The notes beneath the pieces are model-generated. The model saw only the letters and a list, made by a program, of their open reading frames with translations, was not told where the DNA came from and did no database searches. The translations under genes and the position numbers were made by a program. From assembly GCF_016026235.1 (NCBI RefSeq), contig NZ_CP065613.1: a DNA stretch of 64,000 bases; one strand, 5' to 3'. This stretch comes from Escherichia coli. Lineage in GTDB: Bacteria; Pseudomonadota; Gammaproteobacteria; Enterobacterales; Enterobacteriaceae. Position 1 is the first letter of the stretch. Each line of letters opens with the position of its first letter. Below, piece by piece: positions 30,049 to 31,134 of this stretch.

Positions 30049-31134
30049 TCTCCTTCAGTCGCGCCACGATAAGTGCCATTTCCCCTTCCGCCTCCGTACG
30101 CGGATCAAGGCTAAAAACGCCCTGGTGGAGGTTATACCGCCGTGCATAAATCGCGATATCGCCACCACGCAGTTGCGCTTCGACGACGCGAGCGTCAACT
30201 CCCAATTCCTGCGCATTTACTCGAATACGAATACGCCAGATTGCACGCCCGGCTTCATCCTGCTCAATATCAGCCGTTAACCCGTGAATCGCAGAAATCG
30301 CTTCAACCACTGGCTGGAGCTGTTCCGCGGTGATGACTGCCTGCCCCTGGTGATAATTCTCCAGCGCGTAAACCAGCCCAACCATGTTCTCCTTGCCGAT
30401 TTTCATCGCCCTGGCAATGCCGTGATGCTGCGCTTTGCAGGCTGCAATCCAGATTTTTTACCAGTGATAAACCCGGAGGTCGGCGCGTTAAAGGCTTTTG
30501 CGCCGCTGTAGACCACCATATCCGCTCCGCTCACCACCCAGGCACGTAAATCCTCTTCGGCGGCGGCATCGACAATCAGCGGCAGGTTGTACATCTGCGC
30601 GACATGTGCGAAGTCCTCGATGTTCAACATTCCCTTCTGCACGCAGTGATGCGACTTCACATACAGCAGCGCGGCGGTCGCGTCGGTAATGGCACTCTCC
30701 AGCTGCCAGAGAGCCGCCAGGTTACTTGAACCCACCTCCACAACGCGCCCGCCACCTAAGCGGATCGCGCTGAGGATCGATGCACCGTAATCGACGTTAT
30801 GGCCGCGCAGCATCACCACTTCATTGGCCATGCCGGAGCTATCCGGCATGAGCGCCACCCGGGCCTTGTCGCCGCGTGTAATGGCGGCGGCGACAGCGAT
30901 GGCGATCCCTGCTGAGGCACAGGAGGTAACGTAGCTATCCTCCGCCCCGGTAAAGCGAGAGACCAGCTCGCCGGTTTTGTCCACCAGCTGGTCAATCTCC
31001 ACGAAAGAGGATGCCGCGCGCGCGGTGGCCTGCATCACCTCCGGCGCGACGCTGGAGACGCCGAGAATCGTCATCTTGCCGCAGGCGTTAATCACCTGTT
31101 TCAGTCCCAGTTGTTGATAGATATTCTGCGTCAT
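30026..31134 (-). pseudogene. SelA-like PLP-dependent enzyme (DgaE-like D-glucosaminate-6-phosphate ammonia-lyase), frameshifted
   Basis: Two adjacent same-strand ORFs (30403..31134 and 30026..30406) in different frames; adding one base to the T6 run at 30454..30459 (A6 on the coding strand) restores a single open frame of about 369 aa. Confidence 0.7.

What the first reader, a model, noticed from the sequence alone, without database searches (positions are those of the whole stretch)
30403..30460. Frameshift in the DgaE-like gene at a homopolymer tract
The SelA-like gene is split into a 243-aa and a 126-aa ORF in different frames. The downstream frame is closed by a TAA overlapping the start of the A6 run (T6 at 30454..30459 on the plus strand). 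Adding one A would give ...TSGFITGKKIWIAACKAQHHGIARAMKIGKEN... and a single open frame of about 369 aa. This is either a genuine pseudogene, slipped-strand variation, or a homopolymer sequencing error; if real, the island cannot complete the pathway.
Basis: seen in the sequence. Interest (0 to 1): 0.5.

Follow-up and report, generated by a model that had tools for sequence, protein, structure and literature searches.

The report
Real one-base frameshift inactivating dgaE
A sugar-acid utilisation gene (dgaE) in this enteroinvasive-type E. coli has lost one A from a run of seven, which splits the enzyme in two; the lesion is genuine and inherited, but it is an ordinary pseudogene.

Summary
[quoted passage not shown] Adding one A gives a 369-aa protein that matches the curated DgaE model and the solved Salmonella enzyme from end to end.

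A7 is the wild type: all 560 complete RefSeq E. coli genomes with a match over the tract carry it, and none carries A6.

The deletion is not a sequencing error in this window. It is the only indel in about 48 kb against the closest complete genome, and none of the window's 13 homopolymers of 7 nt or more that lie in compared sequence (12 of them) differs in length. A 6.7-kb stretch identical to the window, including A6, is in the Illumina MiSeq assembly of EIEC O143:H26 strain 4608-58. Related A6 carriers keep older bases at two flanking SNPs, so the lesion was inherited.

A6 also occurs on other backgrounds that have otherwise identical A7 twins, which suggests a slippage hot spot.

The N-terminal fragment keeps the PLP lysine. 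The three arginines proposed to bind the substrate phosphate lie in the second ORF, so the enzyme is very probably dead and the pathway blocked, while the rest of the operon is intact.

This is ordinary gene decay in an IS-rich lineage. Interest is low.

The parts
30026..31134 (-). [quoted passage not shown]
   Evidence: The repaired translation scores 687 bits on NF047797 (cut-off 600). It aligns 1-369 with PDB 7LC0/7LCE at E 1e-207. Intact alleles are annotated dgaE in complete genomes.
30454..30459 (-). A6 run on the coding strand (T6 on the plus strand), the site of the one-base deletion. The wild type is A7, spanning codons Lys226-Lys227-Ile228 (AAA AAA ATC).
   Evidence: It is the only indel against FDAARGOS_943 in about 48 kb. 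All 560 complete genomes matching over the tract have T7 and none has T6.
30403..31134 (-). ORF1, 243 aa: 227 native residues (including His162, His163 and PLP-Lys213) plus a 16-residue out-of-frame tail, SGLQPAKRSITALPGR, then a TGA stop
   Evidence: Lys213 aligns with Lys285 of A. aeolicus SelA.
30026..30406 (-). ORF2, 126 aa, equal to native residues 244-369. It carries Arg301, Arg332 and Arg346. Its ATG overlaps the ORF1 stop (ATGA). A second in-frame ATG (Met251) follows an AAGGAG motif with a 3-nt spacer.
   Evidence: The arginine cluster is proposed to bind the substrate phosphate (PMC9529869).
30458..30460 (-). TAA that closes the ORF2 reading frame upstream and overlaps the first two A of the run
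   Evidence: Read directly; it is in frame with the ATG at 30404..30406 (54 nt apart).
30093..30093 (-). Substitution private to the window sub-lineage (T on the plus strand where others have A). It changes Val348 to Glu, two residues after Arg346, inside the already disconnected C-terminal part.
   Evidence: A6 carriers L004 and L012 still have Val, so the frameshift came first.
29296..30039 (-). dagF (dgaF in the Salmonella papers): 2-dehydro-3-deoxy-phosphogluconate aldolase, intact
   Evidence: NF047796 at 350 bits, cut-off 300. The protein is 100% identical to that of strain 94-3024.
31138..33694 (-). Mannose-family PTS permease genes IID (31138..31998), IIC (31995..32744), IIB (32770..33255) and IIA (33266..33694), all intact
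   Evidence: family hits, below the cut-offs of the named paralogue models. Each protein is 100% identical to its counterpart in strain 94-3024.
33813..36611 (-). dagR, a sigma-54-dependent activator with a PRD domain, intact (932 aa)
   Evidence: Annotation of the matching genes. The protein is 100% identical. Pfam Sigma54_activat and PRD are on record for the same product.

Best explanation
This is a genuine, vertically inherited loss-of-function allele of dgaE. One A was lost from an A7 run, most likely by replication slippage (inferred). This shifts the frame after Lys227, adds 16 wrong residues and stops at a TGA. The resulting 243-aa product keeps the PLP lysine (Lys213) and His162/163. 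It lacks residues 228-369, which include the Arg301/332/346 cluster proposed to hold the substrate phosphate, so the ammonia-lyase is very probably inactive (inferred). The permease, the aldolase and the regulator are untouched. The cell should therefore still be able to take up and phosphorylate D-glucosaminate but not deaminate D-glucosaminate-6-phosphate, and so should be unable to grow on D-glucosaminate (inferred). The carrier is an enteroinvasive E. coli O143:H26-type lineage, where the lesion fits ongoing gene decay. The same A7-to-A6 change on other backgrounds suggests that the tract is a mutational hot spot.
For: The site and the repair are verified. The repaired protein is a full-length DgaE (687 bits against a cut-off of 600; 7LC0 aligned 1-369, E 1e-207, reading ...TGRKTWIAACKAQH... 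across the junction). All 560 complete E. coli genomes matching over the tract have T7 and none has T6. Against the closest genome, FDAARGOS_943, there are 35 substitutions and a single indel, this one, in about 48 kb. The remaining compared flanks have no indel. The window's other homopolymers of 7-8 nt lying in compared sequence (12 of 13) do not differ in length. The exact 243-aa product is on 56 contigs in 70 collection blocks. L009 is contig JTCO01000053 of EIEC O143:H26 strain 4608-58, sequenced on Illumina MiSeq (PMC4319576), and is 100% identical to the window over 6732 nt, including T6. L013 (another run) differs by 1 SNP in 20 kb. L012 and L004 carry T6 but keep the ancestral bases at 27786 and 30093, so T6 predates those substitutions. 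dgaE is the only one of 51 reference genes in the central 49 kb that is broken, and the six other dga/dag proteins are 100% identical to those of an intact strain. Lys213 aligns with SelA Lys285. The pathway and the roles of Arg301/332/346 come from PMC9529869. T6 haplotypes B and C have T7 twins that are otherwise identical over 6.7 kb.
Against: No raw reads of the window's own assembly were available, so its T6 call is corroborated only through related assemblies. Inactivity of the truncated enzyme is inferred from residue positions and was not measured; the arginine and phosphate contacts come from manual docking, not from a substrate complex (PMC9529869). Some T6 records on other backgrounds may be sequencing artefacts. 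L008 has two further homopolymer deletions in 6.7 kb, and the platform of the DEC8E and DEC10C drafts is unknown to me. The hot-spot claim is therefore weaker than the inheritance claim. ORF2 has an ATGA overlap and a nearby AAGGAG-ATG, so a C-terminal fragment could be made, and fragment complementation is not excluded.
Confidence: 0.88

Rival explanations
1. A homopolymer sequencing or assembly error: the strain really has A7 and an intact dgaE.
For: The lesion is a 1-nt length change in a 7-nt homopolymer, the classic artefact of 454, long-read and Ion Torrent data. No complete RefSeq genome has T6. At least one other T6 record (L008) comes from an assembly with further homopolymer deletions nearby.
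Against: The window has no other indel against its closest relative in about 48 kb, nor in the other compared flanks, although it contains nine 7-nt and four 8-nt runs. An identical T6 allele is in an Illumina MiSeq de novo assembly of EIEC 4608-58 and in several other runs of the same haplotype. T6 is shared by relatives that differ at flanking SNPs, which is a pattern of inheritance.
Confidence: 0.04
2. A slipped-strand ON/OFF switch (contingency locus): the tract toggles between A7 and A6 at high frequency to vary D-glucosaminate use.
For: A6 appears on at least four flanking haplotypes, and two of them have A7 twins that are otherwise identical. That shows the tract changes length repeatedly.
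Against: A7 is short for a contingency tract (established knowledge). ON is found in 560 of 560 complete genomes. The commonest intact protein is on at least 1000 contigs, against 56 for the truncated one. Within the window's clade every sampled member is OFF, and the C-terminal part has since picked up V348E, which suggests that OFF is fixed there. No A8 allele was seen among the cluster members I read. Salmonella DgaE has Arg-Lys-Thr at this point, which cannot encode an A7 run, so the tract is not a conserved feature of the gene.
Confidence: 0.05
3. The split gene still works. Either -1 slippage on the A run (ribosomal or transcriptional) restores some full-length DgaE, or the two fragments, coupled through the ATGA overlap, reassemble.
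For: A -1 shift of the tRNA-Lys on the second AAA would read AUC next and give exactly the wild-type ...GKKIW... sequence (reasoned). The ORF1 stop overlaps the ORF2 ATG, and an AAGGAG lies 3 nt before the next in-frame ATG.
Against: The arrangement is not conserved: every complete genome matching over the tract encodes one frame. The run has only six A and I did not look for any stimulatory element, so any slippage would be at background level (established knowledge of recoding sites). The fragments lack native residues 228-243 and ORF1 carries a 16-residue foreign tail.
Confidence: 0.03

Closest known systems
[quoted passage not shown]
   Same: The repaired protein has the same length (369 aa) and aligns end to end at E 1e-207. 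His162, His163, Lys213, Arg301, Arg332 and Arg346 are all present. The gene neighbourhood is the same: a mannose-family PTS, a KDPG aldolase and a sigma-54/PRD activator.
   Different: Here the reading frame is broken after Lys227. E. coli has Lys226-Lys227-Ile228 (an A7 run) where Salmonella has Arg-Lys-Thr. The window sub-lineage also has Glu348 in place of Val.
Intact E. coli dgaE alleles (for example WP_000193113.1 in strain 94-3024 and WP_197939775.1 in FDAARGOS_943)
   Same: They sit at the same chromosomal site between loiP and speB. Across dgaE, DNA identity is at least 99% in 560 of the 562 genomes that carry the locus, and the proteins of the rest of the operon are identical.
   Different: They have one more A in the run.
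Gene decay in Shigella and enteroinvasive E. coli (pseudogenes arising from IS insertion and small indels)
   Same: The identical allele is in EIEC O143:H26 strain 4608-58. The window also has speC interrupted by an IS110-family element. The sister genome FDAARGOS_943 has its own pseudogenes in this region: yggP::IS1, a frameshifted meaB and a stop in yggL.
   Different: I know of no evidence that loss of dgaE is pathoadaptive, unlike cadA or nadA/B. In 64 kb only dgaE and speC are hit, so decay here is modest.
SelA, L-seryl-tRNA(Sec) selenium transferase (the name under which older annotation filed these fragments)
   Same: It shares the fold-type-I PLP domain and the ...SG(D/A)K...GKK... motif, and the PLP lysine aligns.
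   Different: The repaired protein scores only 82.7 bits against a cut-off of 267.9 on the SelA model TIGR00474. It has no tRNA-binding N-terminal domain, because the alignment starts at SelA residue 68. It is not a selenocysteine synthase.

Membership tests
[quoted passage not shown] | Whole-protein score above the curated cut-off (600 bits) with full-length coverage | tested here: met
   Met for the repaired 369-aa translation: 687.4 bits, residues 3-368 on profile positions 1-366 of 367. The fragments as encoded score 441 and 198.5 bits, each below the cut-off.
[quoted passage not shown] | Catalytic and binding residues: the PLP lysine, the conserved His162/His163 and the Arg301/332/346 phosphate cluster | tested here: met
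Lys213 aligns with SelA Lys285. The residue roles come from PMC9529869. In the sequence as encoded they are split between two polypeptides.
[quoted passage not shown] | Operon context with a mannose-family PTS (DgaABCD), a KDPG aldolase (DgaF/DagF) and a sigma-54 activator | tested here: met
[quoted passage not shown] | An uninterrupted reading frame encoding one polypeptide of about 369 aa (a functional member) | tested here: not met
   A -1 frameshift after codon 227 and a stop after 243 codons. The locus is a pseudogene of a family member and not a functional member.
[quoted passage not shown] | Ammonia-lyase activity on D-glucosaminate-6-phosphate, and growth on D-glucosaminate | not testable with these tools
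   This needs an enzyme assay or a growth test.
Phase-variable contingency locus (slipped-strand mispairing switch) | Both tract lengths common among close relatives, with frequent reversible switching | tested here: not met
   560 of 560 complete genomes are ON. All five sampled members of the window's haplotype are OFF, with later substitutions layered on top. No A8 allele was found among the cluster members read. Switching rates themselves were not measurable.
Programmed ribosomal frameshift / recoding site | The two-frame arrangement is conserved in homologues | tested here: not met
   Homologues in E. coli and the Salmonella and other solved relatives are encoded in a single frame.
SelA (selenocysteine synthase, TIGR00474) | Score above the curated cut-off (267.9 bits) | tested here: not met
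   82.7 bits for the repaired protein.

The most novel reading that the evidence does not exclude
The A7 run in E. coli dgaE could be a recurrently hit target whose inactivation is selected. Blocking DgaE while keeping the permease might be advantageous or pathoadaptive in enteroinvasive and some Shiga-toxigenic lineages. Alternatively, the ATGA-coupled fragments or -1 slippage on the A run might retain low DgaE activity, which would make this a tunable allele and not a dead one.
Probability: 0.06. Interest if true: 0.4.

Novelty: already known. Interest (0 to 1): 0.12.

Why it matters
The result matters mainly for annotation and phenotype prediction. The two ORFs, filed in some records as 'L-seryl-tRNA(Sec) selenium transferase', should be annotated as one dgaE pseudogene. 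Strains of this EIEC O143-type lineage should be predicted unable to use D-glucosaminate, and possibly sensitive to it if the phosphorylated intermediate accumulates. The result also shows that a single homopolymer frameshift in an otherwise clean assembly can be settled without raw reads, by looking for the exact truncated product in independent assemblies and placing it on flanking SNPs. It does not bear on any open biological question.

Tried and rejected
(1) I suspected that the 264-aa cluster member P0003, on a 34,064-nt contig, was an A8 (+1) allele, which would have supported two-way slippage. It reads through the tract as wild type and ends after residue 264, so it is a separate premature-stop allele.

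(2) I suspected that the roughly 36-nt longer dgaE of 2013C-4081 and O111:H8 02-3334 was related to the tract. It is an in-frame 12-residue insertion after residue 95, with A7 intact.

(3) I looked for a second, compensating indel in the gene. There is none.

(4) I asked whether the window is a generally error-prone assembly. It is not: there is one indel in about 48 kb, and every other compared homopolymer of 7-8 nt is unchanged.

(5) The primary papers on the pathway (Miller et al. 2013, PMC3754740) and on the structure (Phillips et al. 2021, PMC8359929) are not held. I used PMC9529869, which summarises both.

(6) A literature search for FDAARGOS_943 gave nothing useful on its pathotype. Its Shigella/EIEC-like character is inferred from its IS content only.

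(7) I ran no structure prediction or fold search, because a solved structure of a close homologue exists.

Full report
**1. The observation**

The plus strand reads ...CCAGA TTTTTT ACCAG..., with T6 at 30454..30459. On the minus strand this is ACT GGT AAA AAA TCT GGA.

Two minus-strand ORFs abut here. ORF1 is 30403..31134 (243 aa) and ORF2 is 30026..30406 (126 aa), in different frames. In the ORF2 frame a TAA at 30458..30460 overlaps the first two A of the run. The TGA of ORF1 overlaps the ATG of ORF2 (ATGA).

Inserting one A gives a 1110-nt, 369-aa ORF reading ...TSGFITGKKIWIAACKAQHHGIARAMKIGKEN....

**2. What the gene is**

[quoted passage not shown] The cut-off is 600 and coverage is 1-366 of 367 positions.
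- ORF1 and ORF2 hit consecutive parts of the same model, positions 1-230 and 242-366.
- The repaired protein aligns residue for residue (1-369) with the solved Salmonella enzyme, PDB 7LC0/7LCE, at E 1e-207. That protein reads ...TGRKTWIAACKAQH... across the junction.
- It is not a selenocysteine synthase: it scores 82.7 bits against a cut-off of 267.9 on the SelA model.
- The neighbours are dagF (KDPG aldolase, above its cut-off), four mannose-family PTS components and the sigma-54/PRD activator dagR.
- The island lies between loiP and speB and is present in 562 of 5426 complete E. coli genomes.

**3. The wild-type state**

An 80-nt query centred on the tract found 560 complete genomes. None was identical, and every row listed spanned 81 nt. 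The same stretch with T7 matched all 560 at 99% or better, and the listed perfect hits spanned the full 101 nt. A direct alignment shows that the difference is T6 against T7.

Salmonella has Arg-Lys-Thr at this point, which cannot encode an A7 run. The run is therefore a feature of the E. coli allele (Lys226-Lys227-Ile228, AAA AAA ATC).

**4. Real lesion or sequencing error?**

Four lines of evidence bear on this.

(a) Assembly quality. Against the closest complete genome, FDAARGOS_943 (99.9% identity), two blocks of 31.9 and 16.3 kb hold 35 substitutions and one indel, which is this one. The remaining compared flanks have no indel. The window contains nine 7-nt and four 8-nt homopolymers, and none of the twelve others that lie in compared sequence differs in length. 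An error-prone assembly would not look like this.

(b) Occurrence elsewhere. The exact 243-aa product is on record on 56 contigs in 70 collection blocks.

(c) An independent Illumina assembly. Locus L009 is 100% identical to window 27403..34134, including T6. It is contig JTCO01000053 of enteroinvasive E. coli O143:H26 strain 4608-58, sequenced with 250-bp paired reads on Illumina MiSeq and assembled de novo (PMC4319576). That platform is not prone to systematic errors in 7-nt runs (established knowledge).

(d) Inheritance. L013, from another run, differs from the window by 1 SNP in 20 kb and has T6. L012 and L004 have T6 but carry G at 27786 and A at 30093, the bases found in all other haplotypes. 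The deletion therefore arose before those two substitutions and was passed on.

I conclude that the frameshift is genuine in this lineage. I did not see the raw reads of the window's own assembly.

**5. Recurrence**

T6 also sits on three other flanking haplotypes:
- B: L003, L007 and L010, which include the DEC8E and DEC10C drafts.
- C: L005 and L006.
- D: L008 and L011.

For B and C, complete genomes exist that are identical over 6.7 kb apart from the extra T. This fits independent A7-to-A6 events at a slippage hot spot.

Some of these records may be artefacts, though. L008 has two more homopolymer deletions within 6.7 kb, and I do not know the platform of the DEC drafts.

**6. Consequence (inferred)**

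ORF1 keeps 227 native residues, including His162, His163 and Lys213, followed by 16 foreign residues. Lys213 aligns with Lys285 of A. aeolicus SelA in the SG(D/A)K motif. From my own knowledge of that structure, Lys285 is the PLP lysine.

According to PMC9529869, DgaE performs the key deamination step of the pathway: uptake and phosphorylation by DgaABCD, then DgaE, then the DgaF aldolase. In the docked model of that paper the substrate phosphate sits at Arg301/332/346 and the carboxylate near residue 226. The three arginines lie in ORF2, and the frameshift falls at codons 226-228.

The enzyme is therefore very probably inactive. The other six proteins of the island are 100% identical to those of an intact strain. 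This fits a recent lesion, and it means uptake may continue without catabolism.

One later substitution, V348E, lies two residues after Arg346 and is private to the window sub-lineage. That would be compatible with relaxed constraint, but it is a single event.

**7. Rival explanations**

- Sequencing error: see section 4.
- A phase-variable switch is unlikely. The tract is short, ON is universal in complete genomes, OFF appears fixed in the window's clade, and no A8 allele was seen.
- Programmed recoding is excluded as a conserved feature, because all homologues are encoded in one frame.
- Background -1 slippage on AAA AAA, or reassembly of the ATGA-coupled fragments, cannot be excluded by computation. 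I have no positive evidence for either.

**8. Context**

dgaE is the only one of 51 reference genes in the central 49 kb with a frameshift or premature stop. Near the right end of the window, speC is interrupted by an IS110-family element, annotated ISSso6 elsewhere. The sister genome FDAARGOS_943 has 14 places matching that IS-containing query, as well as IS1 in yggP, a frameshifted meaB and a stop in yggL.

Together with the identity to EIEC 4608-58, this places the window in an IS-rich enteroinvasive lineage. The announcement paper describes such strains as intermediate in gene decay between E. coli and Shigella (PMC4319576).

**9. Verdict**

The open question is resolved in favour of a genuine, inherited pseudogene at a homopolymer hot spot. 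This is a known kind of event in a known gene, in a lineage known for gene decay, so interest is low.

Noticed in passing
window 61891-64000: speC (ornithine decarboxylase) is interrupted. Only its last ~85 codons are contiguous (61891..62148, minus strand). From about 62150 there is an IS110-family element (transposase ORF 62228..63403, NF033542 at 274 bits, annotated ISSso6 in other E. coli). A 300-nt exact direct repeat of its 3' part follows (63100-63399 = 63668-63967). The rest of speC is not inside the window.
   Followed up: partly
window 30093 (dgaE codon 348): The window, L009 and L013 have Glu348 where every other E. coli allele read and Salmonella 7LC0 have Val. A6 carriers L004 and L012 still have Val, so this substitution came after the frameshift.
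   Followed up: yes
L001 (FDAARGOS_943), locus 513-1417, 16749-18803; L015 7941-8267: The closest complete genome has an intact dgaE but pseudogenes of its own in the same region: a frameshifted meaB, yggP split by IS1A, and yggL with an internal stop. All three genes are intact in the window. The two sister lineages are decaying at different genes.
   Followed up: partly
proteins P0003 and P0006 (cluster): Other apparent dgaE lesions exist in public E. coli assemblies. P0003 ends prematurely after residue 264 (5 contigs). P0006 is a product that starts at Met108 (8 contigs, up to 51 kb). I did not check whether these are real or what the underlying DNA changes are.
   Followed up: no
L016 (E. 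coli 2013C-4081) 301-1446; also O111:H8 strain 02-3334 (H102): This is a 381-aa DgaE variant with an in-frame 12-residue insertion (MPDSSGITTSLA, partly duplicating MPDSSG) after residue 95. Its A7 tract is intact, and it is annotated only as 'DgaE family'.
   Followed up: yes
L008 (GCA_051590845.1), equivalent to window 31429 and 33811: This T6-carrying assembly also has 1-nt deletions in a C3 and a G4 run. They split the PTS IID gene (206 + 79 aa) and shorten dagR. It looks like an error-prone assembly, so its T6 call should not be counted as independent evidence.
   Followed up: partly
window 37819: An intergenic A6 (between speB and the 243-aa hypothetical gene) is A7 in strain 94-3024 but A6 in FDAARGOS_943. 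This is a second homopolymer length polymorphism, and it is non-coding.
   Followed up: no
window 48824-48831: A short, highly divergent patch with several small indels relative to strain 94-3024 lies between ruvX and yggR. FDAARGOS_943 is identical to the window here.
   Followed up: no
window 1-533: There are internal ~91%-identical repeats in the region matching the ibsC / Ibs-family type I toxin loci of FDAARGOS_943 (secondary alignments), consistent with tandem Ibs/Sib toxin-antitoxin copies.
   Followed up: no
window 36408-36415 (dagR): An A8 run lies inside the dagR coding region, which is intact here and in the references. It is another potential slippage site in the same operon and would serve as a baseline for hot-spot comparisons.
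   Followed up: no
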